From Desulfobulbus propionicus DSM 2032 (GTDB lineage: Bacteria > Desulfobacterota > Desulfobulbia > Desulfobulbales > Desulfobulbaceae): DNA of 32,000 nucleotides. Shown here piece after piece: positions 1,846 through 15,594 of the stretch. Where the stretch lies: positions 1,140,001-1,172,000 of the forward strand of contig NC_014972.1 in assembly GCF_000186885.1 (NCBI RefSeq). The letters run 5' to 3'. Each line of letters starts with the position of its first letter. Positions within the stretch are counted from its first letter, which is position 1. A model generated the notes under the pieces. That model was given only the letters and a program-made list of their open reading frames with translations. It did not search any database and had not been told where the DNA came from. A program made the translations under genes and the position numbers.

Positions 1846-1851
1846 GTCAAA

Positions 1852-2958
1852 GTGAAAGACTTCAACTATTGGAAGAAATTACACGAAAGTGAGAAATTAG
1901 AAGAGTTTAGCACAGATGAGCTAGGGCTTCTTTGGCTCAAAGTAAAATGTATTGTTAGAAAAGAACTGATTTCAGAGTTTCTCACAGCGAATAATATTGA
2001 ACTGAATGAAACGTCATTAAATGGGCAATTTGTTGAATTATACGCTTTGCTTGTAAAAAATCCAAAGGAATCACACAGGATATTGAATGAATACATAGAG
2101 GCGACAAATAAAAGCATTTTGGAGGCATTGGACACCAAAAAACTTGTTTCAGAGTTATACAAACTCAAATCATTTGATTGGGGTGGTGATTACCAAAATT
2201 CTCTAGATAAATATTTAGTAAGCCGTTATGTCAAGGTGATCCAATCTTATGACATACTTGTGTCAAAATTTGAAACAGAGATTAGCACGGCAGTTCAGGG
2301 ATACGTTCTTAATAGCTGGTACAACCACTGGTCTAGTATTCTTATTGAACATATTTTTAAATCAAATAATGCGGTGCTGCCAACTGTTGGCCAAATAAAG
2401 CATGTTGATTTTTTTATAGGCAATGTACCTTTTGACCTTAAGGTAACATATTTGCCAGCAGAATATCTAAAATCTAAAAGAAAAGAAAAAGGATATCCTG
2501 TTGAACTTACTTATTTGAAAGCGCAAGCGAAAAGTCTTGGAATTGATTTTGACAAGAAGGCAAATCCTGCCGATATATACTATGAAATTGTTGAAAAATT
2601 TAAAGACAAGGGCACAAAAGAATGTTTACTCGTAATCGAAACTTTGAAAAAAGAGAAATTGGAGATTCTCAACGAAGCAATAGCCAACCCAAAAGGTCTA
2701 GCAAAATGGCTATATGAAAATCAGGGCGAAATGCGTTTCGGGTCAGAAAACAGACTTTTTCTTGTGCTTGTCGATACAGATGATTTCACAGGGTCTTGGA
2801 AATTGAAGCGTAACATGGATTTGTTAAAGCCAGTAATTGAAGGCTACATTAATGATTTTCCCAAGAAAAAAACTTCAGACTTGAAAATTGAGTTTAAATA
2901 TAAAGGCAAACCACAGACATTCACAGCATTAACTGATGTCATATTTGTTATCAAATAG
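1852..2958 (+). CDS. putative type II restriction endonuclease partner (PD-(D/E)xK-like)
   Basis: 368 aa with a GTG start 6 nt after the MTase stop and AAGGAG upstream. HVDFFIGNVPFDLKV gives a D-x9-D-L-K pattern. The call rests on adjacency to the MTase; no family was recognised. Confidence 0.55.
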   Translation: MKDFNYWKKLHESEKLEEFSTDELGLLWLKVKCIVRKELISEFLTANNIELNETSLNGQFVELYALLVKNPKESHRILNEYIEATNKSILEALDTKKLVSELYKLKSFDWGGDYQNSLDKYLVSRYVKVIQSYDILVSKFETEISTAVQGYVLNSWYNHWSSILIEHIFKSNNAVLPTVGQIKHVDFFIGNVPFDLKVTYLPAEYLKSKRKEKGYPVELTYLKAQAKSLGIDFDKKANPADIYYEIVEKFKDKGTKECLLVIETLKKEKLEILNEAIANPKGLAKWLYENQGEMRFGSENRLFLVLVDTDDFTGSWKLKRNMDLLKPVIEGYINDFPKKKTSDLKIEFKYKGKPQTFTALTDVIFVIK

Positions 2959-3076: not shown

Positions 3077-3085
3077 CTTTTTCAC

Positions 3086-3296
3086 GATCGTTCCCACGCT
3101 CCAGCGTGGGAATGCCACCCTGGACGCTCCAGCGTCCCGATGTGTTCAGCGTCCTATGTGAGCATTTCCCCCCCCAAAAAAACCGCCAGCTCGGGCAGGT
3201 CTCTGTATCCGCACCGCTGGCCACGCGCTTTCTCCGTCGACTCGCCTACGCGGGCGCGTCTTGCCGGAACGCCCACGCTGGAGCATGGGCGCGATC
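3086..3296. repeat. REP/MITE-like element A with palindromic termini
   Basis: The left end is GATCGTTCCCACGCTCCAGCGTGGGAA, containing the perfect hairpin TTCCCACGC-TCCA-GCGTGGGAA at 3091-3112. The right end, GGAACGCCCACGCTGGAGCATGGGCGCGATC (3266-3296), is a degenerate inverted copy. Spurious ORFs here read PTLERGND / HAGAWARS, which is typical of this kind of repeat. Confidence 0.6.
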
Positions 3297-3356
3297 AACC
3301 CTTGCCCTTCGGAATAAAAAGTTCCCCGTCATGCCGCATCCTGTGTAATTGTTCGC

Positions 3357-3384: not shown

Positions 3385-3467
3385 TAAATCATTTCGTGTT
3401 GTCGATGGAAAGTGGACAGAAATGCGCAACATCCTTGTTCGATCCAAACCGAGAAAAGGAGGTGACC

Positions 3468-4010
3468 ATGCAGTGGAAAACAGAAGATGGTGGGTGGAGC
3501 CCGTATCTGGCCGGGGCATTGGTGGGGGTGTTAGCTATCGTTTCGGTGTATGCGACGACCCTATGGATGGGCAAGACCAATTATCTGGGCGCATCGACCA
3601 CCTTTGTGCGTGCCGCTGGGCTTCTTGAACGGACAGTTGCTCCGGATCGAGTGGCTGCCAACGAATACTTCACCAAGGAAAAAGTGCGGGTGGACTGGCA
3701 ATTCATGGTTGTTGCCGGCATCTTTTTGGGCGCCTTGATCGGTTCCGCAACCGACAAGAGCTTTAAACTGGAACATGTGCCGCCGACCTGGGAAAAACGG
3801 TTTGGACCGTCGATCGCAAAACGTGGCGCCGCCGCCTTTTTGGGCGGGATCGTCGCCATGTTGGGGGCCCGCATGGCCGATGGCTGTCCCAGTGGCCACG
3901 GTCTGAGCGGCATGATGCAGTTGTCGGTCAGCTCGTTCATCGCGCTGGCCATGTTCTTCGGCGTTGGGGTTGTCGTGGCCGGACTTATCTACAGGAGGCG
4001 AGCGTCATGA
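3468..4010 (+). CDS. YeeE/YedE-family (Sulf_transp) membrane protein, first half of a split pair
   Basis: The start was moved to the ATG at 3468, behind the strong RBS AAGGAGGTGACC. The protein is polytopic and hydrophobic, with DGCPSGHG. ATGA stop/start overlap with the next gene. Confidence 0.8.
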   Translation: MQWKTEDGGWSPYLAGALVGVLAIVSVYATTLWMGKTNYLGASTTFVRAAGLLERTVAPDRVAANEYFTKEKVRVDWQFMVVAGIFLGALIGSATDKSFKLEHVPPTWEKRFGPSIAKRGAAAFLGGIVAMLGARMADGCPSGHGLSGMMQLSVSSFIALAMFFGVGVVVAGLIYRRRAS

Positions 4011-4537: not shown

Positions 4538-4566
4538 ACATGTAGTGGGATGAACACGGGACTGAC

Positions 4567-4794
4567 GATTGTTCCCACGCTCCAGCGTCCCGTTGTGTTC
4601 AGTGCCCTCTCGGGTGGTTTCCGCCATCCCCCGTTTGTTGGGGAGAATTTGACCCGCTCCTTGTCCGCCAATGCTCGGGTAGGCCGCTGTGGCCGCCTTT
4701 GCAGTGCTGCCCCCTAGGCCATGCATTTGCTTCGCCAACTCGTCGACGCTGGAGCGTCCTGGCTGCGTTCCCACGCTGGAGCGTGGGAACGATC
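4567..4794. repeat. REP/MITE-like element B (same family as element A)
   Basis: The left end, GATTGTTCCCACGCTCCAGCGTCCCGTTGTGTTCAG, resembles the left end of A with an internal deletion. The right end at 4741-4794 (GACGCTGGAGCGTCC...GTTCCCACGCTGGAGCGTGGGAACGATC) is an inverted copy of 3086-3137. Confidence 0.6.
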
Positions 4795-4806
4795 AACGAC
4801 CAGATC

Positions 4807-4877: not shown

Positions 4878-5229
4878 TTACGCCGGCCTGATCTCGACCT
4901 TATCCTGCAAATACCGCTTCACCTCGCCAATCGGCACCTCCTTGCGGTGGAAGATGCCGGCGGCCAGGGCGGCCTCGGCCCGGGTGCGGGTGAAGACTTC
5001 CAGGAAGTGGTCGGCACAGCCCGCCCCACTGGAGGCAATAACCGGGATGGTCACCGCCGAACGCACCGCGTTGATCAGTTCCAGGTCAAAACCCGAGTTG
5101 GTGCCGTCCTTATCAATGCAATTCAGCAGAATCTCCCCAGCTCCCAGTTGCTCGCAGACCTGGGCCAGGGTGACCGCGTCCACCGGTCGTCCCTCGCGAC
5201 CGCCCTTGACGGTGCACTGGTACCAGCAG
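4878..5229 (-). pseudogene. displaced native 3' fragment of hisHF (HisF C-terminal 116 codons plus stop)
   Basis: It encodes [55 protein letters not shown]...VEIRPA. By my manual count it differs at 12 of 116 residues from the C-terminus of the intact gene at 14020-14371. Homology stops abruptly at 5229 and there is no 5' part. Confidence 0.8.
5203..5229. repeat. 27-bp att core (left junction)
   Basis: CCCTTGACGGTGCACTGGTACCAGCAG is identical to 14345-14371. The sequences diverge completely immediately to the right (TTTAGGG versus AAGCGCT). Confidence 0.7.
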
Positions 5230-5413
5230 TTTAGGGAACGCGCTTCTTGTTTTTTAGTGGTTTCAATGTGTTGCGGGTGAGTTTTCTGTTTTGCCGTCCC
5301 ACCACCCAGCAACTTCCCAACCCGTCAAAGTGTGCGTCTCGGCTGACCCAAAGGCGAAGATTTCTTGCCTCAGCCGGGTCTCGAATCCCCACCCACTCAT
5401 CACCCAACCCAGC

Positions 5414-6595
5414 TCACGCCGGTGTTTTCTCCGCCGCTGCCGGTAGCCAGGGCACGTTTGATGCCGCCGCGTCCACAGCCGCCAGTAGAGTTTCCTGGCT
5501 GAGGTGTGCATATCGCTGGGTGGTTTTCAGCTGACTATGCCCAAGCACCTTGGCCACCTCGTAGATCGACCTGCCGGAGTTGACCATATTCGAGGCCATA
5601 CTATGCCGGAGATCATGCATCCGCACATCGGGCAACCCTGCAGCTTTACGGGCGTTATCCCAAGCTCGGTGCATCTGGACAAAGGGAAGCCTAGTGTCCG
5701 GATTGGGAATGACATAGGGGCATCCTTCCCACCGGGGGAGCTGACGCAGGATCTCCAAGGCTGATAGCGACAGAGGAACATGCCTGGCTTTCCCGGATTT
5801 GGACATAGGGATGCGCCAACTCCGTCGCTCCAGGTCGAACTCTTCCCATCGACTATCGAGCAGTTCCCGTTTCCGGCAACCGAGCAGCAGGAGCAGGGGG
5901 GCTATGTATTTGAGTTGGGTGTTCTTGCTTTTCTCCAGTTGCTCAAGGAGGCGTTGGGTTTCTTCGATCGAGAGATAGCGCTCCCTGGCCGTTGCCTCAT
6001 ACAGCTTTACATCTACAGCCGGGTTGACCTTGACGTCCGGTACTTCCCATTTGATTGCCAGATTGAAAATGTATTTAAGCAGGACCAAGACCCGGTTGGC
6101 CATACCCGATGCAAAACCATTAGCTCTCATTCCGTGATGCAGGTCGGCAACCATAATCTGAGTGATCTCATTCATGCGATACGTGCCAAGAGGAGGGAGG
6201 AGATGATTTCGGAGCAGGGAATCATCGTTCTTCCAACTGCGCTTGTATCCCTTAATGAAGGGGATATAACGCTCACTGCAGAACTCAGCTAGGGTGGGGA
6301 CGTCTTTCTTGCTCTTTCGTTGTTCAGCGGGGCTATCTCCCAGGACAACTTGAGAGCGCAACACCTTAGCGGCATTCCGGGCCTTGTCGAAGGTGATGGA
6401 CTTGGCATCTCCGATTTTATGCTGGATCTGCCTTCCATGCTGATCTTTATACCGAAGAGCATAGGTCTTGCCACCGGTGGACCGGACTTCGACAATGAAG
6501 CCAGTAATGGTGGAGTCATAGTAGTTATCTTTCTTCTTACCTTCAGTGCAGACAGCATTACGGACAAATTCTGCGGATAGTTTGACTACAGGCAT
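5414..6595 (-). CDS. int: tyrosine recombinase/integrase, P4-like with an N-terminal arm-binding (DUF4102-type) domain
   Basis: The start was set at the ATG at 6595 behind ACAGGAGGTATCAA. MPVVKLSAEFVRNAV...GFIVEVRSTGGKTYALRY is the arm-binding domain. Catalytic residues: R in GCRKRELL, HDLRHS, LGHSQLKTTQRYAH. The 100 Pro-rich codons upstream in the tracked ORF were rejected. Confidence 0.9.
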   Translation of the reverse strand: MPVVKLSAEFVRNAVCTEGKKKDNYYDSTITGFIVEVRSTGGKTYALRYKDQHGRQIQHKIGDAKSITFDKARNAAKVLRSQVVLGDSPAEQRKSKKDVPTLAEFCSERYIPFIKGYKRSWKNDDSLLRNHLLPPLGTYRMNEITQIMVADLHHGMRANGFASGMANRVLVLLKYIFNLAIKWEVPDVKVNPAVDVKLYEATARERYLSIEETQRLLEQLEKSKNTQLKYIAPLLLLLGCRKRELLDSRWEEFDLERRSWRIPMSKSGKARHVPLSLSALEILRQLPRWEGCPYVIPNPDTRLPFVQMHRAWDNARKAAGLPDVRMHDLRHSMASNMVNSGRSIYEVAKVLGHSQLKTTQRYAHLSQETLLAAVDAAASNVPWLPAAAEKTPA

Positions 6596-6817
6596 TTGAT
6601 ACCTCCTGTTTTGGATGATAATGGAAAAAGGATGACAGTGACCTGTGCTGCCGGAGTGGGGGCAGGGGAGCGGTCGCTGCCACCGGAGGGGGGGAGCGAG
6701 TGGGCACCCAGCGGGACCGGAGAGCAGCGTTTCGGGGGCGGTCATGGCCCAGGGTATGCGCCGGGGTGAGCGCCCGAGAGCGGGGCGACTCGGGGGGTAC
6801 TGGAGGGGGGGCTGGAA

Positions 6818-6832
6818 GTGGGAAAAGTGGGG
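6818..6832. repeat. inverted partial copy of the island box (GTGGGAAAAGTGGGG)
   Basis: Its reverse complement, CCCCACTTTTCCCAC, matches CCCACTTTTCCCAC at 9397-9410. A second partial copy, GAAAAGTGGGGG, lies at 6862-6873. Confidence 0.5.
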
Positions 6833-6869
6833 AAATTGCCCCAGCTCCCCTGGCTCCAATAGAAAAGTG

Positions 6870-6910
6870 GGGGAGGGTGCCCCATACCGCTTCACAACAC
6901 CACCCTCCCC
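6870..6910 (-). terminator. strong hairpin downstream of the primase-helicase gene (terminator-like)
   Basis: GGGGAGGGTG (6870-6879) and CACCCTCCCC (6901-6910) form a perfect 10-bp stem with a 21-nt loop. On the minus strand it is followed by CACTTTTCT. The T-run is short, so function is uncertain. Confidence 0.4.
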
Positions 6911-6914
6911 AGCT

Positions 6915-6937
6915 TGAAAAATCCACTTTATCCACTA
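6915..6937. repeat. island box copy X: TGAAAAATCCACTTTATCCACTA
   Basis: 20 of 23 positions are identical to copy Y at 9390-9412. It lies just 3' of the primase-helicase stop on the minus strand. Confidence 0.6.
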
Positions 6938-6952
6938 CTCTTGCGAGTGGCG

Positions 6953-8599
6953 TTACTGCTCGATAGATGTGACCTTGGGAACCGGCTTAAAAGCTACACC
7001 TCGAAAGATCTCGTAGCCGTCGAGAGAAGTGTGTGTGACACCGAGGCCAATGTTATGCGACAGGAGTTCTTTGACCCGGCCTTTTGAAAAAGGATGGCGC
7101 CCATTATCCTTGCACCATTCCTTGTATGCTGCGTAGAATTCTGCACGTCGAACCTTGTGTTCGTCACCCCGGATGCACTCTTCGTGGATGAATTCTAAGA
7201 GAGAATTAGCGGTGAGGCGCCATTTCTCCATCAGTCGATCATGAGCCTTCGAATTTGAGAACTTGCCGTTCTCTAAAAGCCGTTTAGCGCCTTCCAGTGC
7301 CCAGTGCGCAATACCAGAGAGCTCTTTCTGGATGATGCGATCGGCAATGCCTGGATCGATCGGCAACCCTGTACGTAAGCGACTATTGGGAAACTCAATG
7401 ATCAGCCAACGGCAAAAAAAAGCCTCACTGTGATCGTTGGTGGTGATGAGGTGGTTCGACATAAATAAATGAGCCGCCTCGTTTTTAAAAGTGAAAGGCC
7501 GTTGGCCTGGATGTCGTCCGGCAACCAAGTCTCCACCGGTGACCGTTTTGAACTCGGCAGACGGAATGGGCTTGGAATCTGGCAACTCACCAACCGAATT
7601 AAGCCGCTTGCCTGCCAATGAGGCCAGATAGTATTCGCCGTTCCATTTGAAGGGCGACACCGCTGAAACGAACTCCCCTGGAATCAGATTGGTTATGATT
7701 CTCTCCATGGTACCCTTTCCAGCGCGGCCGAATGGATCATAGAACAAAATAGCCTTCTGAAATTGCGCCATAAGGCCGAGAATGATGGCTCCAAAAATCT
7801 CCTGAAGGAGAGTCACTTGTTGTTCTTCGTCGCCCGGTTCACTGGATTTGAAAGTATCATGCAGAAAAATGTCAAATAGAGGTGTTTTCTGCTGCTGCGG
7901 AGTAACATCGACCATCACACGCTGCCGATGTGGGGCGGTTAGAGCTTCAACACATATCTGGTGATCTTTGAGATGGTGGAAGCCGTTGGCACAGGCCAAC
8001 CCAACCGGTACATTCGTAAAGAATGTATCGTCCGTGGTGATCATGATCAGGTGATTGGCGATCCCACAGTAGTCCGTACTCCTGGTGCAGTTCTCCTTAC
8101 CGTCATATACTTCGGCGATATGTCGGGTGAGTGTCTCGAACGGGAATTTGATCCAGATGGTTGTCTCTGAATCGAGTACAAAGAGACTGCCCTGATATGC
8201 TACCGGTCGATTACCATCGACAGTCAGTCTATCCGTCATGTCGGTGGCATAACCGTGATGGGTCTGGGCAAGGTCCTCGTTCTTGGTGGCAGTTGCTTTG
8301 ATGGCCTTATCAAGGCTGACTACGGAGATATCCTTGTTGGCCTTTAACTCAGCACGGATACGAGCAAACTCTGCCGGATCATGCTTGTTGATGAAAGCAA
8401 GAGTTTCGACAGCTTCTGGTTCAAAAGGAGCTCCGCAATCGTTTGCCGCCCTTTCGACAAGACGTTTTGCTTCTTCCTTGGCGTGAGTCAATTTGCATTG
8501 ATCGCTTTCCTGATCAATGAGCTGCAGGGTGGTTCCCATTTCACTGTCAGGTGATGCAGCGGTCGAAAGCTTAAGTTCCTGATTTTCTTTTTGTTGCAT
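6953..8599 (-). CDS. P4/D5-family primase-helicase C-terminal-type protein (SF3 NTPase)
   Basis: 548 aa. Walker A is FGRAGKGT. The block LNSVGELPDS...FKTVTGGDLVAGRH...FMSNHLITTNDHSEAFFCRWLIIEFPN has the layout of the phage/plasmid primase P4-family C-terminal domain. No clear TOPRIM or AEP motif was seen in the N-terminal 230 aa. Confidence 0.8.
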   Translation of the reverse strand: MQQKENQELKLSTAASPDSEMGTTLQLIDQESDQCKLTHAKEEAKRLVERAANDCGAPFEPEAVETLAFINKHDPAEFARIRAELKANKDISVVSLDKAIKATATKNEDLAQTHHGYATDMTDRLTVDGNRPVAYQGSLFVLDSETTIWIKFPFETLTRHIAEVYDGKENCTRSTDYCGIANHLIMITTDDTFFTNVPVGLACANGFHHLKDHQICVEALTAPHRQRVMVDVTPQQQKTPLFDIFLHDTFKSSEPGDEEQQVTLLQEIFGAIILGLMAQFQKAILFYDPFGRAGKGTMERIITNLIPGEFVSAVSPFKWNGEYYLASLAGKRLNSVGELPDSKPIPSAEFKTVTGGDLVAGRHPGQRPFTFKNEAAHLFMSNHLITTNDHSEAFFCRWLIIEFPNSRLRTGLPIDPGIADRIIQKELSGIAHWALEGAKRLLENGKFSNSKAHDRLMEKWRLTANSLLEFIHEECIRGDEHKVRRAEFYAAYKEWCKDNGRHPFSKGRVKELLSHNIGLGVTHTSLDGYEIFRGVAFKPVPKVTSIEQ

Positions 8600-8727
8600 A
8601 GTTGATTTCTCATCATAAGAAGTTCCCCGGTAGTACTGCTGTTAATCTGAGCCGTTGTCATGATGACCTCGACCGGTTCCGGTAAACACTCCGGAACTCG
8701 TGCCCCTTGGCTTACGAATTCTCGACT

Positions 8728-8743
8728 GACGCATAAATATGCG
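8728..8743. promoter_or_regulatory. operator-like inverted repeat upstream of the primase-helicase gene
   Basis: ACGCATA-AA-TATGCGT has 7-bp perfect arms and lies about 130 nt upstream of the start at 8599. The hairpin GTTCCGG-N8-CCGGAAC at 8675-8696 lies in the same leader. Confidence 0.3.
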
Positions 8744-8844
8744 TAAATGTGATTTTGTTATTTCTTGTTACGGTTTTCTTTCTTTTTTGATCACCTCCTT
8801 GAAAGTGTGAAACTTGCATTTTTGTGAGCAGCCCGTCCCCCGTC

Positions 8845-8867
8845 CTGAAAATCCACTTTGACTGTGG
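8845..8867. repeat. island box copy Z: TGAAAATCCACTTTGACTGTGGA
   Basis: It shares TGAAAA(A)TCCACTTT with copies X and Y, then diverges. Confidence 0.45.
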
Positions 8868-8873
8868 AAGGCG

Positions 8874-8928
8874 CGTTAGCTATTAGCTAACAGAAACCTT
8901 CCAAGTCCAACTTGCTGTTGGACTTGGA
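8874..8928. repeat. two adjacent perfect palindromes
   Basis: GTTAGCTA-T-TAGCTAAC occupies 8874-8890. TTCCAAGTCCAAC-TTGCT-GTTGGACTTGGAA occupies 8898-8928 (13-bp arms). No U-tract lies on either side. They directly abut a very AT-rich stretch at about 8935-9165. Confidence 0.6.
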
Positions 8929-9389
8929 AACCGATCATTTGCAGAATTATGCTAAAATTGCAAGCAAGTCAACTGTAATTTTTTAGAAATTAAAAAATTA
9001 AAGACTTAATGAATAAAAGATGTATAAACATTAGTAAATAGAATTCCTTGTTAAAGCGGATTGAATAGGTAGTGAAAATTTAATGAAGTTATATGTCTTA
9101 AACCTTATGTTTTGTTGATGCCTATTTGAGGCACTTTCGCTTAATGTATTTTCTATGCTGAAGTAAAGGTGCTTTACCTTGAATATTTTTCTCCAAGGAT
9201 AAATACCCCTACGTGAAGGTGAAATGGTAAGGTATCTCACGTTATCCTTATGCGGCAGAGCCAAAGCGATAAGCGGTAGAGCCTTTCGCTCATGAGAGAG
9301 CCGACAAGATTGATTTTTAGTTGTTAGCCTCCTCGGATCGATAGGGGGAGGAAAGGGGGCGCAATTTTTTCGGTAGCACTCCACCCCCT

Positions 9390-9412
9390 CTGAAAAACCC
9401 ACTTTTCCCACT
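9390..9412. repeat. island box copy Y: TGAAAAACCCACTTTTCCCACTA
   Basis: It lies just 3' (minus strand) of the stop of the 58-aa ORF at 9458. As with copy X, G-rich and C-rich arms sit beside it (AGGGGGAGGAAAGGGGG ... CCACCCCCTC). Confidence 0.6.
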
Positions 9413-9457
9413 ATTCGAGTAGGCGGGGCGGCGTCTTGATGCGTATCTCCTCGGAAA

Positions 9458-9634
9458 CTATAAAAATTTCCAGTAGAAGTACACGGCGATACCAATGGTC
9501 GCTAAAACCATGACCGGTATGGGGTACAGGAAAGCCAGGACAGTGATGCAGATAATCCCGATGCCTTGGGTTGAACGAAAGAACATGCTCAAGACGGCAG
9601 CGGTAATCAGGGCGCAGGTCAGTGAAAGGATCAT
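9458..9634 (-). CDS. small hydrophobic membrane protein (58 aa), not in the ORF track
   Basis: The ATG at 9634 overlaps the upstream TGA as ATGA, with GGAG 8 nt upstream. Translation is MILSLTCALITAAVLSMFFRSTQGIGIICITVLAFLYPIPVMVLATIGIAVYFYWKFL, giving 2-3 hydrophobic segments. It falls below the 60-aa track cutoff. Confidence 0.55.
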   Translation of the reverse strand: MILSLTCALITAAVLSMFFRSTQGIGIICITVLAFLYPIPVMVLATIGIAVYFYWKFL

Positions 9635-9981
9635 TTGAGCATCTCCTGTATGAAGGAACTTGGATCACAGCAGAGGTAGCTGTGCTTATCAATCAACTGA
9701 ACCAGGCCTTCGTTCAGGAGTGCGGCCAATAGAAATCCACCGGTATTGGCTGACTTTCCCTTGAAGATTGCTTGGAGCAAATCCGAGGAGATAGGCTTGT
9801 TATCTTCGACGCCCAGCCGCTCCAAGGTGACCCACTCTTTGCAAAAGAAACCACCATTCGAATTCCCATGGAGCTGGAGATAGATCACTTCTTCCCGCCT
9901 TCCAACGTGGTAGGTCAATGAGGTCTTGCCGGAGAGGGAAGGGCAATGACCTATCTTGATTATCTTGATAACTTCACTCAT
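9631..9981 (-). CDS. hypothetical protein (116 aa), middle gene of the coupled operon
   Basis: ATGA overlaps at both ends. Composition is plausible (MSEVIKIIKIGHCPSLSGKTSLTYHVGRREEVIYLQLHGNSNGGFF...). No family was recognised. Confidence 0.65.
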   Translation of the reverse strand: MSEVIKIIKIGHCPSLSGKTSLTYHVGRREEVIYLQLHGNSNGGFFCKEWVTLERLGVEDNKPISSDLLQAIFKGKSANTGGFLLAALLNEGLVQLIDKHSYLCCDPSSFIQEMLK

Positions 9982-10229
9982 GATTGAATCTCCCTGCTGA
10001 GTTCCCAGGCATCCAGCCCCATATCGATATAGTCGCGTTCATCCAGGTGGTGCTCGATGGCTGCTTTGACTTCCTCCATGGCGAGTTGGATGTCTTCCGG
10101 TGTGAGATAGAGGGCATCCGGTCCGAGCCGCTGGACGATTGCTTTGAGAACGGATTCGGAGGTGAAACTGTGAAGTGCGTCTTGGGGGCTGATTTGAGAG
10201 AGTTGGGTAATGATTTCTTGGTGTGTCAT
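9978..10229 (-). CDS. hypothetical acidic protein (83 aa), first gene of the coupled operon
   Basis: RBS TAGGAGCCCATT lies before the ATG at 10229, and an ATGA overlap links it to the next gene. No family was recognised. Confidence 0.65.
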   Translation of the reverse strand: MTHQEIITQLSQISPQDALHSFTSESVLKAIVQRLGPDALYLTPEDIQLAMEEVKAAIEHHLDERDYIDMGLDAWELSREIQS

Positions 10230-10907
10230 AATGGGCTCCTATTGGCTGGAAATAAAAAAGCCCCATGGCTGAGTAGCCGCAGGGCGATAACGGGACATGA
10301 AAGCTTGTTTAGGCTTTCATATAAGATGGCGGATTAGGCGAAATAGGAGCAGGTTCGTTATGGGATGCTGTTAGATTAGCCCTAGGGGAGGTAAATAAAA
10401 TTCTTCTATGTGTTGATTTTATGAGTCTGTATATACGTGGTTTTGATCGATGAATAGGTATATTTACCGGGGTTGATTTTTTGGTGTTGTAGGGGTAGAT
10501 GAAAATAAGATTCTATCCATCAAATCATGTGGTTCTGTGCGATAGAAGATTAGCACCGTTCCATATTGCGTTTTGCCTTATCAACGGCCTTTTATTTGGT
10601 GATGCTAAGTATAGCCGCATTTTATTGGAGTCTTTTTATGAAATAGGTGCCGTTGGATCCAATTTGGTGAAGTCAATATTCATTGGAACTATCTTGACCA
10701 GTTAAAAAACACCGCTTCTTCAATCTTGATTACCCTATCACTTTTTATCTTTTTTTGACTTTGTCTTATTTATTAATCTAACTACGAGAATTGTTTCAAT
10801 ATTGTGAAATTACATAAACATTTAACAAGTGCGACGGCTGAGTATCTCATATAAAAATTGGTCCAACCATATTGATATGTGTCCAAATATAAAAAGGAAT
10901 CACCCCT

Positions 10908-12671
10908 ATGTCACAACTCAGATTTCATGTTGACACGCGTTTAGCTTTTCTGCTGAGTGAGAATTACAGATCAACTGAAAATGCAATCAAAGAGCTTGTT
11001 GACAACGCTTGGGACGCAGATGCTGAAAGAGTAAAAGTGTTCTTACCTGAACCGCTAACAGTCAATCCTGAAATTATCGTTGAAGATGATGGAACAGGTA
11101 TGATCGAAGAGGAATTACGTCGAGAATATCTCTTTATTGCCAGTGATCGGCGGCAGAGGCGTGGAGAAAGAACTGCGTCAAAAAAGCGAAAAGTTAAAGG
11201 GAGAAAGGGTATTGGTAAATTTGCTGGTCTAATGACAGCATCAACCATGAAACTAGAAACTTGCGCACGAGGTATATGTTCTTCATTTTCCGTTACCAGA
11301 GATGAATTCAAGAAATTTGATGATATCGAGGGGATGCCCATTAATTTGTTTACAAAAAAGGTTTCTCAAGAAAAACATGGCACAAGAATAATATTATCAA
11401 ACTTGAACCAAGACCTAACCTTTCCAAATCCAACCAAATTAAAACAATTACTCATTCAAGAATACGGCAGGGAAATTGATTTCAATGTTGAAGTCAATGG
11501 GAAGGAGCTCGGTATTGACGATGTTCAAGGCAATTTTACTGAAATAAAAAAGGAAATTCCAAAAGTTGGAGAAGTTAATCTTCAGTTTACAATTAGCAAT
11601 CAGAAAAGAAAATTAAGACAGCCTGGTATAGCTATTAGAGTAGGTGGTAAAATAGTTGGAAATCCTAGCTTTTTTGGCTTGGAAAAGGTGGACGATTTTC
11701 CACCGAAGCTATTGGATAAACTATACGGTGAAGTTGAGGCTGATGGTCTTGCGGACCATGTTACTGCTGACTGGGGCGCATTAATCGAAAATAGTGAACT
11801 GCTTAAAAAGGTAGAAGATGTTTTTCAACCTATTCTGAAAGAAAAATTTAAAGAAGAATATGGCAGAGAAATTAATCTAGCTCAGGCAAGACTCAAAAAA
11901 AAGATAAATGAGAGGCTTGCATTACTACCTGAACACAAACGAGAATACGCAGACAAAGCTATTAAAAAAATCCTCCAAAGGTACTATGGAGAGCCAGAAT
12001 CAAAATTGGAGCCTATTGTTAATGTTGTCTTGGATTCACTGGAACGATCTGATTATAGGATAGTGATTGAGCATCTATATGAGGCAAGTAATTCTGATAT
12101 TGCCACATTGGCAGAAGTGCTTTGTGAGTTTGGATTAATTGAATTAGCAATTATGGCAGAACAGACAAATGGCCGTTTGACTTTCCTTGATTATCTTGAG
12201 CAAATCTGTATAAATCCAACAACATTAGAAGAACTTCCCCATAAAGCTATTGAGAATAATCTATGGGTAATTGGACATGAATTCACTCTATTCAGTTCGA
12301 ATAAAACACTTAAACGTCAAGTTGAGGAATATTTAGAGAAAGATTACAAAAGCAACATTGGAGAAAAGCGACCTGATTTGCTTCTCAATGAAAACATTCT
12401 TCAAGAATACCTTCTTATTGAATTTAAACGCCCAAGTCACAACCTGATATATAAAGATTATCAACAAGCCACTCGCTACAGAAATGACTTTGGGAAATAT
12501 ACAGACAAGGAAATCAAGGTGGTAATTATTGGCGGAAAAAGGGGGGGCGATCTACCACCAAAGAAGCACAGAGAGCCCTCAGTCGAAATACTTGTGTACC
12601 CTGAGCTTATTTCTGCGGCGCGTAAGCGTCTAGACTGGTTGTTGAAAGAGCTGAGAAATAGAACAAATTGA
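10908..12671 (+). CDS. GHKL (Bergerat-fold) ATPase fused to a C-terminal PD-(D/E)xK nuclease resembling the Shedu/DUF4263 core
   Basis: 587 aa. N-box is ELVDNAWDAD (aa 29-38), G1 is EDDGTGM (59-65), G2 is GRKGIGKFAG (98-107). The C-terminus reads FLDYLEQI...NNLWVIGHEF...RPD490LLL-x11-LLIE505FK507RP...YQQATRY. RBS AAAGGAAT lies before the ATG. Confidence 0.8.
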   Translation: MSQLRFHVDTRLAFLLSENYRSTENAIKELVDNAWDADAERVKVFLPEPLTVNPEIIVEDDGTGMIEEELRREYLFIASDRRQRRGERTASKKRKVKGRKGIGKFAGLMTASTMKLETCARGICSSFSVTRDEFKKFDDIEGMPINLFTKKVSQEKHGTRIILSNLNQDLTFPNPTKLKQLLIQEYGREIDFNVEVNGKELGIDDVQGNFTEIKKEIPKVGEVNLQFTISNQKRKLRQPGIAIRVGGKIVGNPSFFGLEKVDDFPPKLLDKLYGEVEADGLADHVTADWGALIENSELLKKVEDVFQPILKEKFKEEYGREINLAQARLKKKINERLALLPEHKREYADKAIKKILQRYYGEPESKLEPIVNVVLDSLERSDYRIVIEHLYEASNSDIATLAEVLCEFGLIELAIMAEQTNGRLTFLDYLEQICINPTTLEELPHKAIENNLWVIGHEFTLFSSNKTLKRQVEEYLEKDYKSNIGEKRPDLLLNENILQEYLLIEFKRPSHNLIYKDYQQATRYRNDFGKYTDKEIKVVIIGGKRGGDLPPKKHREPSVEILVYPELISAARKRLDWLLKELRNRTN

Positions 12672-12880
12672 AATCACATATCAAGTCAATAAACCTGACC
12701 GGAAATAGCGGCGTTCTTAAATGGTGGGCAATACGTCGGCCGGCAAATTATTTCACCGTTACGAGTCAATATTGCTCCTGTTTATTTTAACCTGAGTCGT
12801 TTCCTCTAATTTGAGGAAAATTTGGATCATAAACAATAGAAAGTATTTTTCAGTAAAACCTACGATCATTGGAGGCAATC

Positions 12881-13375
12881 ATGACAATTTCATCTTCTGA
12901 AGCTCAGCTTGAATTGACGCTCTTGAATGCAAAAACGAACGGTTTTGATGAGCACGATGCATTTACATCGTTTGTCAATGCTGGCTTGCCAATGGAAATA
13001 ATTTTAAGGTTAAAAGAGCTGTGGGGGGCAACCAAAGTTCTGGGGGGTAAGGTTATTCGTATTGGCAAGATAATAGTCATAGAGATCATTAAATTCATTA
13101 ATGAAAATCCAAATTTGGCCACAGGGGTTGCCGTGGGGGCCGCAGTCGGGTCATTGATCAGTCTTGTGCCTTATCTGGGTCCGTTGCTAGCGCCGCTTTC
13201 AACTGCTATTGGAGCTTTGTTAGGGGGGCTGGCAGGAGCAAGGCTTGATCGCACTAATAAAAATGCACAAGGAATCGTTGGAGTTGCTCAAGATGTCATT
13301 GTTGTAGCTCGCAAATTTTTTGAATTGCTTGCATCTATTTTTATGGCTCTAAAAGAAAAATTGAATGATGAATAA
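12881..13375 (+). CDS. glycine-zipper membrane protein 1 (164 aa)
   Basis: The start was moved to the ATG at 12881, behind GGAGG at 12871-12875; the track uses TTG at 12869. The central segment is NLATGVAVGAAVGSLISLVPYLGPLLAPLSTAIGALLGGLAGA (GxxxG/AxxxG repeats). Confidence 0.7.
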   Translation: MTISSSEAQLELTLLNAKTNGFDEHDAFTSFVNAGLPMEIILRLKELWGATKVLGGKVIRIGKIIVIEIIKFINENPNLATGVAVGAAVGSLISLVPYLGPLLAPLSTAIGALLGGLAGARLDRTNKNAQGIVGVAQDVIVVARKFFELLASIFMALKEKLNDE

Positions 13376-13386
13376 AAGATGCGAGT

Positions 13387-13944
13387 ATGAAAAAACCCAC
13401 GATTGATGAATATATTCAAGCCTTAGAAAAGATGAAGGAAAGCCCAGGTGACCGGATTGGGATATTGGGAGAATTAGGAGTGACAGGGTTAGGGGTTACA
13501 GCAGGAGTGGCACTTTCTGGTACTGTTGCAGGAGCCGCTGGAGCAGCTACCCTTGCTGGATCGACAACATTGGCATCTATTTTAGGCGGGATATTTGTAA
13601 CTACAACTCCTATTGGATGGGTGGTTGGTGCTGCATTCACAGGAGGAGTGTTGGCCTATACAGCAAGTCAGATGATACGAAGCGGAGAAAAATGTGATAT
13701 CTATAAAACAGAAACGATTAAAGAGCTTGAGAATAGAGTTAAAATTTTGCGAAACGAGGCTGAATATTCTTCGCTGCATGAAGAAAAGATGAAAAAAATA
13801 ATAACGAGTTTGCAATTTTTGGTAGCTAATACGATTGTGACTCAAGAAAAATCAACTGAATTGTTGGCAGCGATTGAATCGGGGATTTTGAGTATTGATG
13901 ATGCTTTTGATTTGGTCGAGGAATTGTTGAAAGAGAACAGATAA
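13387..13944 (+). CDS. glycine-zipper membrane protein 2 (185 aa) with a C-terminal helical or coiled region
   Basis: The hydrophobic stretch is GILGELGVTGLGVTAGVALSGTVAGAAGAATLAGSTTLASILGGIFVTTTPIGWVVGAAFTGGVLAY, followed by a charged helical tail. It lies 11 nt after the previous gene. Confidence 0.7.
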   Translation: MKKPTIDEYIQALEKMKESPGDRIGILGELGVTGLGVTAGVALSGTVAGAAGAATLAGSTTLASILGGIFVTTTPIGWVVGAAFTGGVLAYTASQMIRSGEKCDIYKTETIKELENRVKILRNEAEYSSLHEEKMKKIITSLQFLVANTIVTQEKSTELLAAIESGILSIDDAFDLVEELLKENR

Positions 13945-13962
13945 TCAATTTTTAATTTAATG

Positions 13963-13992
13963 AGGCGCCTGACCACAACGGATCAAGCGCCT
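13963..13992 (-). terminator. hairpin terminator after the island-supplied hisHF 3' end (possibly bidirectional)
   Basis: The minus-strand RNA AGGCGCUUGAUC-CGUUGU-GGUCAGGCGCCU forms a 12-bp stem with two G-U pairs, followed by CAUUAAAUUAAAAAUU. On the plus strand the stem has two C-A mismatches. Confidence 0.5.
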
Positions 13993-14019
13993 TTCTAAGT
14001 CAATGATTTGGGGAAGAAC

Positions 14020-15594
14020 TTACACCGGGCGAATCTCCACCTTGCCGGTCAGGAACTCTTTCACCGCACCGATCGGTACTTCCTTCCGGTGAAAGATGCC
14101 CGCTGCCAGGGCCGCTTCGGCGTTGGTCTTGGTAAACACCTCCAGGAAATGTTCCGCACATCCCGCACCGCTGGAGGCAATCACCGGGATGGTCACCGCC
14201 GCACGAACCGCATTGATCAGTTCAATGTCAAAGCCGGAGTTGGTGCCGTCCTTGTCGATACAGTTCAGGAGAATCTCGCCAGCTCCTAGCTGCTCACAGA
14301 CATGAGCCAGGGTGACCGCATCCACAGGGCGTCCTTCCCGGCCACCCTTGACGGTGCACTGGTACCAGCAGAAGCGCTCGCCATTGGGGCCGGGAAAACC
14401 AGTCTCGATCACCCGGTGTGGCACTGCCTCGGGGCTGTCAACATAGACCCGGCGCGGATCGATCGAGATCACCACCGCCTGGTTGCCATACACCCGGGCA
14501 ATCTGCTCGATGGAACTCAGGCCCGTGGCCTGGCCGGTTTTGAGCACCTGCTCGACGATCTCCACCGCGTCGGAACCGATGGACACCTTGTCCGCGCCGG
14601 CGCGGAAGTAGCGCGAGGCCACCTCCAGGGCGCTGTAGAAGCGGCCGTCGCGGTCGGTGAAGTCGCGGATGCCGCCGCCGATGGTTAGGGGAACAAAGAC
14701 GTTTTTCGAGGTCTGCTCCAGCACGTCGAGCATGGGCATGTCCTGGAGCGGAAAGTCGCGGAACCCGGTGATGTTGAGGAAGGTGATCTCGTCCGCGCCC
14801 TGCTCGTAGTAGTCGCCGGCCAGTTCCACCGGCTTGCCCAGATTGCGCACCGTGCCCTCGTCGCGGACATCGTACTGATCGCCCTTGGTCACCACCAGAT
14901 CACCCCGGTCGTTGGCGCGCACATCCAGGCAGGCGATGATGCGCTTGGCCAGGACCGTGGTCTGCGGGCAGGCGTTGGGACGCACGGCTTCGCGGTTGCC
15001 GGCGAGGAAATTCTCCAACAGCCTGAGGCCGGCGCGGCCGCTCTTTTCCGGATGGAACTGGGTGGCCACCATGGCCCCGCGCTGGATAGCGCTGACAAAT
15101 TCGTAGCCGTAGTCGGTGGTGGTGAGGATGTCGTCGCGCGAGGCCGGAGCCACATGAAAGGAGTGGACGAAATAGAACTTTTCATTGCCGGCCAGGCCCT
15201 GGAACAGCGGCGAGGCCTGGTGCATCTTCAGCCCGTTCCAGCCGATGTGCGGGATGGCGAGATCGCAGGTGAACCGCTGCACCCGGCCGGGCAGAATACC
15301 GAGCCCCGGTTCGTCCGGCGCCTCCTCGCTCGACTCGAACAGGGCCTGGAGGGCGACGCAGATGCCGAAAAAGGGTTTGCCCGAGTGCAGATAGCGGACC
15401 AGCGGTTCGCGCAGCTGTTTGTCGCGCAGGGTGTGCATCAGGGCGCCAAAGTTGCCCACGCCGGGAAAGACGAGCCGCTCGGCACGGTCGATGTCCGCGC
15501 CGCTGTTGACCAGCATCACGGTTTCGCCGAGCCGTTCGATGGCATTGATGACCGAGCGGACATTGCCGGCGCCGTAATCAAGAAGAGTAATCAT
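14020..15594 (-). CDS. hisHF: fused imidazole glycerol phosphate synthase (HisH glutaminase plus HisF cyclase in one 524-aa chain)
   Basis: The N-terminal part [15 protein letters not shown]...GICVALQ...QFHPEKS is a class I GATase (HisH). The C-terminal part [11 protein letters not shown]...IGGGIR...[13 protein letters not shown]...ASSGAG is HisF. Confidence 0.9.
14345..14371. repeat. 27-bp att core (right junction, inside hisHF)
   Basis: Identical to 5203-5229. Confidence 0.7.

What the first reader, a model, noticed from the sequence alone, without database searches (positions are those of the whole stretch)
10908..12671. GHKL ATPase fused to a Shedu/DUF4263-like PD-(D/E)xK nuclease, a candidate single-protein or core defence effector
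The N-terminus has all three Bergerat-fold ATP-binding motifs (ExxxNxxD, DxGxG, GxxGxG), as in MORC/MutL-type ATPases linked to R-M and conflict systems.

The C-terminal roughly 140 aa carry NLWVIGHEF … RPD(490) … IE(505)FK(507)RP … QQATRY. This matches my recollection of the DUF4263 nuclease core of Shedu SduA, including the preceding FL-x-YLE helical element.

Shedu proteins are known to have highly variable N-terminal sensor domains. I cannot say from memory whether a GHKL-ATPase-regulated version has been characterised. ATP-driven clamp or dimerisation control of a nuclease would be a mechanistically distinct variant. The gene is cargo of an int/primase island, a typical hotspot context.
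Basis: partly seen in the sequence, partly recalled or inferred. Interest (0 to 1): 0.8.

Follow-up and report, generated by a model that had tools for sequence, protein, structure and literature searches.

The report
GHKL ATPase–Shedu nuclease defence gene
This gene encodes an ATPase fused to a DNA-cutting domain of the Shedu anti-phage family and rides on a small mobile island; this kind of fusion is already catalogued, and one relative has been shown to block phages, so it is a new example of a known kind rather than a discovery.

Summary
The 587-aa ORF at 10908-12671 (+) is real.

The N-terminus is a GHKL ATPase (PF13589, E 4e-27). In the model it continues into an Hsp90/MORC-like middle domain. 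The C-terminus is a PD-(D/E)xK nuclease, and its closest solved relative by sequence profile is B. cereus Shedu SduA (E 1.4e-5). E441, D490 and E505/K507 align with Shedu motifs I-III.

The gene is cargo of a 9.1-kb integrase/primase element inserted in the 3' end of hisHF. The element is bounded by a 352-nt repeat ending in an identical 27-nt core. In this protein's own clade no neighbouring gene is conserved beside it.

It was described as paraMORC3 in 2008 and classed as Shedu type I-D in 2023/2025. The V. cholerae member VcSduA needs both its ATPase and nuclease residues for phage defence (2025).

I could not compare Despr_1024 directly with VcSduA. How the ATPase controls the nuclease is still unknown for the whole class.

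Verdict: new member of a known kind; interest low to moderate.

The parts
10908..12671 (+). Despr_1024: 587-aa GHKL ATPase fused to a Shedu-type nuclease (end coordinate includes the stop codon)
   Evidence: ORF. 100% identical to P0001 / WP_015723739.1. Homologues share the same N-terminus and length, so the start codon is right.
10971..11384 (+). GHKL (Bergerat-fold) ATPase domain, residues 22-159, with motif I E29xxxN33xxD36, motif II D60xG62xG64, motif III G98xxG101xG103 and motif IV T159
   Evidence: PF13589 E 3.8e-27, 95 bits against a cutoff of 25. Motif positions. Motif residues invariant across the family.
11415..11777 (+). Mixed beta/alpha middle domain, residues about 170-290, resembling the transducer/S5 domain of Hsp90 and MORC
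   Evidence: AF2 model, pLDDT 81-92 over this stretch. Foldseek alignments to TRAP1/Hsp90/MORC run about 370-440 columns, well past the ATPase domain. Gu et al. describe an Hsp90/MORC-like middle domain (N24) in GHKL Shedus. Domain boundaries are approximate.
11796..12212 (+). All-helical linker, residues about 297-435, including a long helix at 297-337
   Evidence: Secondary structure of the AF2 model; pLDDT is only 62-89 here. No family hit. A role in dimerisation or in coupling the two domains is inferred only.
12213..12668 (+). Shedu-type PD-(D/E)xK nuclease domain, residues about 436-587: motif I E441, motif II D490, motif III E505-x-K507, candidate motif IV Q520
   Evidence: PF14082 E 5e-5, below the gathering score. 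37 of 38 relatives hit PF14082. Core profile against PDB: SduA 8ti8 E 1.4e-5. C-terminal AF2 model pLDDT 85.9. Foldseek top hits are NucS/EndoMS at prob 0.99. Conservation across architectures.
4878..5229 (-). Left boundary repeat: displaced 3' fragment of hisF (encodes [10 protein letters not shown]...VEIRPA*). The 27-nt identical core at 5203-5229 is the likely crossover site (attL).
   Evidence: Direct repeat D1. 352-nt alignment at 81% identity with an identical 27-nt end, translation, and GC of 62.7% that matches the host.
14020..14371 (-). Right boundary repeat: the 3' end now attached to hisHF, probably brought in by the element. Identical 27-nt core at 14345-14371 (attR).
   Evidence: GC is 58.7% against 64.5% for the rest of hisHF.
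5414..6895 (-). Tyrosine integrase of the element
   Evidence: PF00589 1.5e-27 and Arm-DNA-bind_3. phrog_1 integrase 2.6e-65.
6953..8599 (-). D5/DUF5906-type primase-helicase of the element
   Evidence: PF19263 and PF03288. phrog_864 DNA primase 3e-50.
12869..13944 (+). Two small glycine-rich, membrane-like ORFs (168 and 185 aa) downstream in the same island. They are not conserved partners of the nuclease.
   Evidence: ORFs. Only weak hits: glycine zipper 0.009, PADLOC LeoBC 8e-6. Absent next to the gene in 80 related loci and in the two closest relatives.

Best explanation
Despr_1024 is a single-gene anti-phage nuclease of the GHKL-ATPase class of Shedu, also called paraMORC3 or Shedu type I-D.

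The polypeptide has four parts: an N-terminal GHKL ATPase, an Hsp90/MORC-like middle domain, a helical linker, and a C-terminal Shedu-type PD-(D/E)xK nuclease.

The most likely mechanism is as follows. The protein dimerises through its GHKL domains when ATP binds, as GHKL ATPases generally do. The middle domains form a clamp or cavity that engages DNA. The ATP cycle then licenses the nuclease to cut invading DNA. The active site would be E441, D490, E505 and K507, with Q520 as a likely fourth motif. The host survives, so this would be direct restriction rather than abortive infection.

The gene is carried as cargo by a 9.1-kb integrase/primase element inserted into the 3' end of hisHF.

Shown here: the domain architecture, the conserved catalytic motifs, homology to Shedu SduA, the absence of a conserved partner gene in this clade, and the mobile context.

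Taken from a relative (VcSduA, PMC12137116): defence activity, the need for both the ATPase glutamate and the nuclease lysine, and the non-abortive phenotype.

Inferred only: dimerisation, DNA clamping, ATP gating of the nuclease, and what the trigger is.
For: - GHKL domain: PF13589 E 3.8e-27. All four GHKL motifs are invariant in 38 homologues.
- Fold: the full-length AF2 model (pLDDT 77.5) matches TRAP1/Hsp90 and MORC2/3/4, including the middle domain, at E about 1e-13.
- Nuclease by Pfam: 37 of 38 members hit PF14082 at E <= 0.01, best 2.2e-7.
- Nuclease by PDB profile: SduA 8ti8 at E 0.004 with the family profile and E 1.4e-5 with the multi-architecture core profile. In both, E441/D490/E505/K507 lie over SduA E204/D249/E264/K266, the residues named in Gu et al..
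- Nuclease by fold: the C-terminal model (pLDDT 85.9) is closest to NucS/EndoMS, the family Gu et al. name as Shedu's closest structural homologue.
- Modularity: the same nuclease subtype is fused to other sensor domains, namely Roc-COR, REC and REC-GGDEF. This is the Shedu pattern of variable N-terminus and constant nuclease.
- No partner: no conserved neighbour in 80 loci apart from one R-M/ICE subclade that does not include Despr_1024. The six neighbourhoods inspected in detail all differ.
- Distribution: patchy across phyla, with copies on plasmids and a distant copy in a phage.
- Island: bounded by a 352-nt repeat and containing an integrase and a primase.
- Literature: paraMORC3, Shedu type I-D with a GHKL N-terminal domain, and VcSduA, whose E27A and K557A mutants lose defence.
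Against: - Despr_1024 is below the PF14082 gathering score (23.9 against 27 bits), and only the first 40% of that model aligns.
- No Shedu structure appears in the top 50 Foldseek hits, and all Foldseek E-values for the C-terminal model are weak, 0.014 or worse.
- Motif IV (SduA Q295) is not aligned to Q520 in any alignment. The Q520 assignment rests on invariance and its position in the helix after the third strand.
- No experiment exists on this protein or its 587-aa clade.
- Orthology to VcSduA could not be tested. The motif spacing differs by about 50 residues (K507 here, K557 there).
- The best curated NCBIfam match over the full length is a type II restriction-enzyme family.
- Oligomeric state and ATP dependence were not modelled.
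Confidence: 0.75

Rival explanations
1. It is a sequence-specific type II restriction endonuclease of the BbrUII/HgiDII kind. Those enzymes have the same GHKL-linker-nuclease layout. On this reading a DNA methyltransferase encoded elsewhere protects the host.
For: The best NCBIfam hit is NF050001, the BbrUII/HgiDII family restriction enzyme, at E 3.4e-46. The C-terminal half alone also matches it (E 1.7e-10, profile positions 342-581 of 659), so the homology spans the whole protein. PADLOC REase_II models hit the N-terminus. About 14 of 80 related loci have a methylase and a ResIII helicase directly upstream. An N6/N4 methylase lies at 328-1845 in the window.
Against: The score is 158 bits against a curated cutoff of 550, so the protein is not a member of that equivalog. 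The 9.1-kb element contains no methyltransferase. The window's methylase is 9 kb away, outside the element boundary, and is followed directly by its own 368-aa ORF of unknown function. The R-M-linked loci form a separate subclade. The six neighbourhoods inspected in detail contain no DNA methylase. A mobile element carrying a solitary sequence-specific endonuclease would kill a new host.
Confidence: 0.1
2. The nuclease serves the mobile element rather than the host. It might exclude competing elements or plasmids, interfere with a helper phage, or act as an addiction module that stabilises the island.
For: The gene is cargo of an integrase/primase element. Relatives sit in ICEs and on conjugative plasmids. 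The two small membrane-like ORFs downstream have no assigned role.
Against: Four of the six neighbourhoods inspected in detail, and most of the 80 related loci, show no integrase, primase or conjugation genes beside the gene. No antitoxin-like partner is conserved. The one tested relative protects the host against lytic phages without killing it. This reading overlaps with defence and does not exclude it.
Confidence: 0.1
3. It is a housekeeping GHKL protein, either a MutL-like repair factor or an HtpG-like chaperone, as some database names suggest.
For: One homologue is named 'DNA mismatch repair protein MutL' in NCBI. There are weak NCBIfam hits to MutL and HtpG models. The fold resembles Hsp90/TRAP1.
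Against: All MutL and HtpG scores are far below cutoff, for example TIGR00585 at 30.7 against 180 bits, and they cover only the ATP-binding motifs. The C-terminus is a PD-(D/E)xK nuclease, not a MutL or Hsp90 C-terminal domain. The gene is low-GC cargo of a mobile island, and the family is patchily distributed.
Confidence: 0.02

Closest known systems
VcSduA of Vibrio cholerae (WASA lineage, VSP-II island), a GHKL-ATPase Shedu; PMC12137116
   Same: Same architecture: N-terminal GHKL ATPase with motifs I-IV and a C-terminal DUF4263-type PD-(D/E)xK nuclease. It is a single-gene system on a genomic island. The residues mutated there (E27 in GHKL motif I, K557 in the nuclease) appear to correspond to the invariant E29 and K507 here. 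That correspondence is inferred from motif identity, not from an alignment.
   Different: The spacing between the two catalytic residues is about 50 residues shorter here. Host, element type and phage range are all different or unknown.
paraMORC3 family (Iyer, Abhiman and Aravind 2008; PMC2292703)
   Same: Defined as GHKL + S5 domain + a conserved C-terminal restriction-endonuclease-fold domain with an E-D-ExK motif. It is sporadically distributed, mostly in proteobacteria, and occurs both standalone and in R-M operons with methylases and SF2 helicases. Despr_1024 has all of these features: E441-D490-E505xK507, patchy distribution, and both standalone and Mod/Res-linked clades.
   Different: The family was defined by computation only, before Shedu was named. 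D. propionicus was not among the genomes analysed. Membership is judged here by the published description, not by a family model.
Canonical Shedu SduA of Bacillus cereus B4264 (PDB 8ti8/8ti9; Gu et al., Loeff et al.)
   Same: The nuclease cores are homologous: profile hit at E 1.4e-5 with motifs I-III in register. Both resemble EndoMS/NucS structurally. Both are single-gene defence systems with a regulatory N-terminal region.
   Different: SduA has a small N-terminal sPC4/Whirly-like domain and no ATPase. It forms tetramers and octamers and senses DNA ends. Despr_1024 has an ATPase plus middle domain and a long helical linker. Only the first 40% or so of the PF14082 model aligns. A tetramer was poorly supported for the GHKL relative VcSduA.
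BbrUII/HgiDII family type II restriction enzymes (NCBIfam NF050001)
   Same: Homologous over the full length, covering both the GHKL half (E 3.4e-46) and the linker-nuclease half (E 1.7e-10).
   Different: The score is less than a third of the family cutoff. There is no adjacent methyltransferase here.
Eukaryotic and prokaryotic MORC ATPases, Hsp90/TRAP1 and the MutL N-terminal domain
   Same: GHKL ATPase plus middle-domain fold (Foldseek E about 1e-13 to 1e-11).
   Different: The C-terminal domains are different, and there is no significant sequence-family membership.

Membership tests
GHKL (Bergerat-fold) ATPase superfamily | Motif I (ExxxNxxD), motif II (DxGxG), motif III (GxxGxG) and motif IV (conserved T) | tested here: met
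   E29xxxN33xxD36, D60xG62xG64, G98xxG101xG103 and T159 are all present and invariant in 38 homologues.
GHKL (Bergerat-fold) ATPase superfamily | Family model above the curated threshold | tested here: met
   PF13589 HATPase_c_3 at 95.4 bits against a cutoff of 25, residues 22-159.
GHKL (Bergerat-fold) ATPase superfamily | ATPase domain followed by a transducer/S5-like middle domain | tested here: met
   The AF2 model aligns over about 370-440 columns with TRAP1/Hsp90 and MORC2/3/4 at E 1e-13 to 1e-11. Global TM-scores are low (0.25-0.37), as expected when domain orientations differ.
GHKL (Bergerat-fold) ATPase superfamily | ATP binding and hydrolysis, and ATP-driven dimerisation | not testable with these tools
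   Needs biochemistry or multimer modelling.
Shedu (SduA_C / DUF4263, PF14082) | PF14082 match at or above the gathering score | tested here: inconclusive
   Despr_1024 scores 23.9 bits against a cutoff of 27, E 5e-5, over profile positions 8-65 of 159. 37 of 38 close relatives hit at E <= 0.01, best 2.2e-7. About half of the listed homologues carry a precomputed PF14082 hit.
Shedu (SduA_C / DUF4263, PF14082) | Homology of the nuclease core to experimentally defined SduA | tested here: met
   Profile A3 against all PDB sequences: top hits are SduA 8ti8 (E 1.4e-5) and 8ti9 (E 1.4e-4). The next nuclease is NucS at E 0.2. Profile A2 gave 8ti8 at E 0.004.
Shedu (SduA_C / DUF4263, PF14082) | Nuclease motifs I (E), II (D) and III (ExK) in register with SduA E204, D249 and E264/K266 | tested here: met
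   E441, D490 and E505/K507 align to those residues (SduA numbering, with a chain offset of +2). They are invariant or at least 90% conserved.
Shedu (SduA_C / DUF4263, PF14082) | Motif IV (Q295 in SduA) | tested here: inconclusive
   Q520 is invariant across architectures and lies in the helix after the ExK strand. No alignment pairs it with SduA Q295.
Shedu (SduA_C / DUF4263, PF14082) | Elaborated PD-(D/E)xK fold closest to EndoMS/NucS | tested here: met
Shedu (SduA_C / DUF4263, PF14082) | Constant nuclease combined with variable N-terminal sensor domains | tested here: met
   The same nuclease subtype (E 1e-50 or better) is fused to Roc-COR with SIR2 or LRR, to REC, and to REC-GGDEF.
Shedu (SduA_C / DUF4263, PF14082) | Anti-phage activity that depends on the nuclease residues | not testable with these tools
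   Shown only for the relatives SduA and VcSduA.
paraMORC3 (Iyer et al. 2008) | GHKL + S5 + C-terminal RE-fold domain with E-D-ExK; sporadic distribution; standalone or in R-M operons | tested here: met
   Architecture and motifs. Relatives found in 399 species-level genomes across many phyla. Standalone and Mod/Res-linked clades both exist.
VcSduA orthologue group (Shedu type I-D with GHKL) | Direct sequence similarity to V. cholerae A1552VC_00276, or presence in that paper's hit list | not tested
   The sequence and Table 7 were not retrievable because the table was truncated in storage. Longer GHKL-nuclease variants carry no organism names.
BbrUII/HgiDII type II restriction enzymes (NF050001) | Score at or above the equivalog cutoff of 550 bits | tested here: not met
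   158.1 bits.
BbrUII/HgiDII type II restriction enzymes (NF050001) | Adjacent cognate DNA methyltransferase | tested here: not met
   There is no methylase within the element at 5203-14371. None is present in the six neighbourhoods inspected in detail.
MutL / HtpG | Family model above cutoff and the matching C-terminal domain | tested here: not met
   TIGR00585 scores 30.7 against 180 bits and HtpG models 27-30 against 371-455 bits. Only the N-terminal motifs match.

The most novel reading that the evidence does not exclude
The 587-aa clade of Despr_1024 may be a separate branch at the edge of the Shedu family, together with the Roc-COR, REC and REC-GGDEF proteins that share its particular nuclease subtype. 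Standard detection would largely miss such a branch, because many members fall below the PF14082 gathering score. It might also work differently from the end-sensing SduA tetramer, as an ATP-operated dimeric DNA clamp that gates a nuclease, loosely like TopoVI-B with Spo11 or MutL. If so, this clade would be a compact and highly conserved model for how a GHKL ATPase switches on a nuclease.
Probability: 0.25. Interest if true: 0.55.

Novelty: new member of a known kind. Interest (0 to 1): 0.25.

Why it matters
The finding adds one well-delimited example of a GHKL-ATPase Shedu, in a sulfate-reducing deltaproteobacterium and on a small integrase/primase element with clean boundaries.

Its practical value is threefold:
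- Annotation. The protein is currently labelled 'hypothetical', 'ATP-binding protein' or even 'phosphonate ABC transporter permease'.
- Detection. Much of this clade lies just under the Pfam threshold for the Shedu domain, so defence-system censuses may undercount it.
- Mechanism. The family is compact and strongly conserved, so it could be used to study how the ATPase controls the nuclease. That question is still open for the whole class.

It does not reveal a new kind of system.

Tried and rejected
**Searches that gave nothing useful**
- A homology search with the C-terminal 198 residues returned only truncated fragments of the same family.
- A homology search seeded with the 75-residue SduA segment, meant to build a canonical Shedu alignment for a profile-profile comparison, found nothing because the query was too short for the word index.

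**Attempts to link Despr_1024 to published lists**
- The VcSduA homologue table was truncated in storage.
- The supplements of Gu et al. are not held.
- The longer GHKL-nuclease representatives carry no organism names.

**Ideas tested and dropped**
- The two downstream glycine-rich ORFs as partner genes. They are absent from 80 related loci and from the two closest relatives.
- The window's methylase at 328-1845 as a cognate partner. It lies outside the element boundary.
- A tRNA or RNA gene as the integration target. None was found; the target is the 3' end of hisHF.
- The promoter/terminator scan showed no enrichment over shuffled sequence and was not used.
- The 125-aa ORF on the opposite strand inside the gene (10964-11341) is treated as spurious.
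Full report

Yes. An ATG-to-stop ORF of 587 codons occupies 10908-12671 on the + strand. It is 100% identical to Despr_1024 (ADW17196.1 / WP_015723739.1) of Desulfobulbus propionicus DSM 2032.

These are not chance matches. In an alignment of 38 homologues at 57-78% identity, the GHKL motif residues (E29, N33, D36, D60, G62, G64, G98, G103, T159) and the nuclease residues (E441, H445, W453, D490, E505, K507, Q520) are invariant.

**2. The N-terminal half**

Pfam HATPase_c_3 matches residues 22-159 at E 3.8e-27. An AlphaFold2 model built on the 38-sequence alignment has a mean pLDDT of 77.5. Foldseek against the PDB aligns about 370-440 columns of it with TRAP1/Hsp90 and with MORC2, MORC3 and MORC4, at E about 1e-13 to 1e-11.

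The similarity therefore extends beyond the ATP-binding domain into the mixed beta/alpha middle domain (about residues 170-290). A helical region follows (about 297-435), which includes a 40-residue helix and matches no known family.

Scores against the MutL and HtpG family models are far below their cutoffs and cover only the ATP-binding motifs.

**3. The C-terminal half**

Pfam SduA_C (PF14082) hits residues 445-520 at E 5e-5. That is 23.9 bits, under the gathering score of 27, and it covers only profile positions 8-65 of 159. PADLOC SduA models give E 5e-4 to 1.6e-4. Taken alone this is marginal, so I tested the assignment in four further ways.

- Family consistency. 37 of 38 relatives hit PF14082 at E <= 0.01, with a best value of 2.2e-7.
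- Family profile against all PDB sequences. The only nuclease hit was B. cereus Shedu SduA (8ti8, E 0.004).
- Multi-architecture core profile. I built a nuclease-core profile from 25 proteins of different architecture. Against the PDB it put SduA 8ti8 first (E 1.4e-5), 8ti9 second (E 1.4e-4), and NucS at E 0.2. Both alignments place E441, D490 and E505/K507 over the SduA residues that Gu et al. define as motifs I, II and III: E204, D249 and E264/K266.
- Fold. A separate AF2 model of residues 380-587 (pLDDT 85.9) has NucS/EndoMS as its top Foldseek hits (prob 0.98-1.00), followed by the Cap4 and Can2 nuclease domains. Gu et al. state that EndoMS is the closest structural homologue of the Shedu nuclease.

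The segment just before D490 has low model confidence in both models. This recalls the mobile 'motif II loop' of SduA, but I offer that only as an analogy.

**4. Modularity of the nuclease**

A profile of the C-terminal region, searched against 1.84 billion representative proteins, found 1,618 hits at E <= 0.001 and 143 at E <= 1e-30.

Several strong hits match only the nuclease core and carry different N-termini:
- Roc-COR GTPase with SIR2 or with LRR (P0247, P0248, P0251)
- a receiver domain (P0268)
- receiver plus GGDEF (P0255)

Two of these exceed the PF14082 gathering score. This is the Shedu pattern of a constant nuclease with variable sensors. The receiver-domain fusions correspond to the phosphoreceiver class that Gu et al. 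call type 1F.

**5. Genomic context in the window**

The gene lies in a low-GC stretch (38-45%) of a genome that runs about 62% GC.

A 352-nt direct repeat (4878-5229 and 14020-14371, 81% identity) ends in a perfectly identical 27-nt core, CCCTTGACGGTGCACTGGTACCAGCAG. The right copy is the 3' end of the fused hisHF gene (14020-15594, -). The left copy encodes a displaced 116-aa HisF C-terminal fragment at host-like GC.

The element therefore spans about 5203-14371 (9.14 kb). It integrated into the 3' end of hisHF and supplied a replacement gene end.

Its contents, in order:
- a tyrosine integrase (5414-6895, -)
- a D5/DUF5906 primase (6953-8599, -)
- small ORFs of unknown function
- Despr_1024
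- two small glycine-rich, membrane-like ORFs

The window contains no tRNA gene and no Rfam match.

**6. Is there a partner gene?**

A scan of one genome per species found relatives in 399 genomes. They include Gamma- and Betaproteobacteria, Desulfobulbales, Chlorobi, Nitrospirota, Verrucomicrobia, Cyanobacteria and others.

None of the window's neighbours recurs next to the gene in the 80 loci kept, nor in the two closest relatives at 75-78% identity.

Unbiased clustering of flanking ORFs found one recurrent arrangement in about 14 loci. An N6/N4 methylase and a ResIII helicase lie directly upstream, inside an ICE backbone marked by DUF4400 and a TraD/TraG coupling protein. On a neighbour-joining tree these loci form one derived subclade, plus one deep-branching exception (L066). 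Despr_1024 sits in a different clade that has no such partner.

Four further neighbourhoods from its broader group are all different from one another.

Family members also occur on 21 plasmids. A distant relative is in Yersinia phage P37. All are annotated only as 'ATP-binding protein' or 'hypothetical'.

The gene therefore behaves as a standalone cassette that moves horizontally.

**7. Comparison with what is known**

The architecture has been described three times.

- Iyer, Abhiman and Aravind (2008) defined paraMORC3 as GHKL + S5 + a C-terminal restriction-endonuclease-fold domain with an E-D-ExK motif. They found it sporadically distributed and either standalone or in R-M operons with methylases and SF2 helicases. 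Despr_1024 and its family fit every point.
- Gu et al. (2023 preprint; Mol Cell 2025) list GHKL (HATPase_c_3) N-terminal domains with an Hsp90/MORC-like middle domain among type 1D Shedu proteins.
- Adams et al. (Nat Microbiol 2025) showed that V. cholerae VcSduA, a GHKL-DUF4263 protein, protects against T1-like coliphages and vibriophage X29. Their E27A (ATPase) and K557A (nuclease) mutants both abolish protection. Protection held at all tested MOIs, which they read as non-abortive. A dimer with a clamp-like middle domain was predicted confidently, and a tetramer was not.

I could not obtain the VcSduA sequence, so orthology is untested. The spacing between the two catalytic residues differs by about 50 residues.

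One further point: the curated NCBIfam model for BbrUII/HgiDII type II restriction enzymes matches both halves of Despr_1024. Those enzymes therefore share the whole architecture. At 158 against 550 bits, however, Despr_1024 is not a member of that family.

**8. Mechanism**

Shown here: the architecture, conserved ATPase and nuclease active-site residues, homology to Shedu, standalone status and mobility.

Taken from VcSduA: anti-phage function that needs both activities and spares the host.

Inferred: ATP-driven dimerisation of the GHKL domains, DNA capture by the middle-domain clamp, and nuclease licensing by the ATP cycle. The trigger, and how self DNA is distinguished from foreign DNA, are unknown for the whole class.

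**9. Verdict**

The feature is a new member of a known and experimentally validated kind.

I set interest at 0.25. The residual value lies in annotation, in showing that much of this clade falls just under the Pfam Shedu threshold, and in the still-open mechanism of GHKL control.

Noticed in passing
window 328-2958: A very low-GC block (34-40%) holds an N6/N4 DNA methylase (PADLOC MTase_II 2e-47, Pfam PF01555). It is followed 7 nt later by a 368-aa ORF with no hit in Pfam, NCBIfam or PADLOC. This is probably a separate type II R-M pair with an uncharacterised endonuclease. It lies outside the integrase/primase element.
   Followed up: partly
window 3084-3299 and 4565-4797: Two copies of an element of about 215-230 nt, each bounded by 22-30-nt terminal inverted repeats (GATCGTTCCCACGCTCCAGCGTGGG / CCCACGCTGGAGCGTGGGAACGATC), so it looks like a MITE. 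The copies flank a truncated sulphur-transport gene (3396-4010, which matches only positions 161-308 of the 310-position model).
   Followed up: partly
window 4878-5229 and 14020-14371: The 9.1-kb element integrated into the 3' end of a fused hisH-hisF gene (524 aa) rather than a tRNA gene. It carries a diverged 352-nt replacement of the gene end (81% identity) that finishes in an identical 27-nt core.
   Followed up: yes
window 12869-13375 and 13387-13944: Two adjacent small ORFs (168 and 185 aa) with glycine/alanine-rich hydrophobic stretches. Hits are weak: glycine zipper, MscL, PADLOC LeoBC at 8e-6 and PDC-M09A at 1e-3. They are island cargo of unknown function and are not linked to the nuclease elsewhere.
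   Followed up: partly
proteins P0247, P0248, P0251, P0255, P0268 (representative library): The same nuclease subtype is fused to Roc-COR GTPases (with SIR2 or LRR), to a receiver domain, and to receiver plus GGDEF. The Roc-COR-nuclease and SIR2-Roc-COR-nuclease architectures look like candidate defence proteins in their own right.
   Followed up: partly
L015-L024, L028-L030, L045, L048, L049 (match at about 8001-9750 in each) and L066: In one subclade the GHKL-nuclease gene directly follows an N6/N4 methylase (about 600 aa) and a ResIII helicase (about 916 aa). These sit inside an ICE backbone with DUF4400 and a TraD/TraG coupling protein. L066, a deep-branching Nitrospirota locus, has the same methylase-helicase pair, which suggests the association arose more than once.
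   Followed up: partly
database names of P0001 and P0014: Public names for this family are misleading. UniRef calls Despr_1024 'Phosphonate ABC transporter permease', and NCBI calls the Zhongshania homologue 'DNA mismatch repair protein MutL'.
   Followed up: no
Yersinia phage P37 (MT239398.1, 493-2082, - strand): A 33-kb Yersinia pestis phage encodes a distant relative (25.6% identity over residues 20-510) annotated as hypothetical. PHROG family phrog_6203 (unknown function) matches Despr_1024 at E 7e-58.
   Followed up: no
window 9631-9981 (- strand): A 116-aa island ORF matches phage family phrog_28971 (unknown function) at E 1.6e-9. The 83-aa ORF that overlaps it at 9978-10229 has no significant hit.
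   Followed up: no
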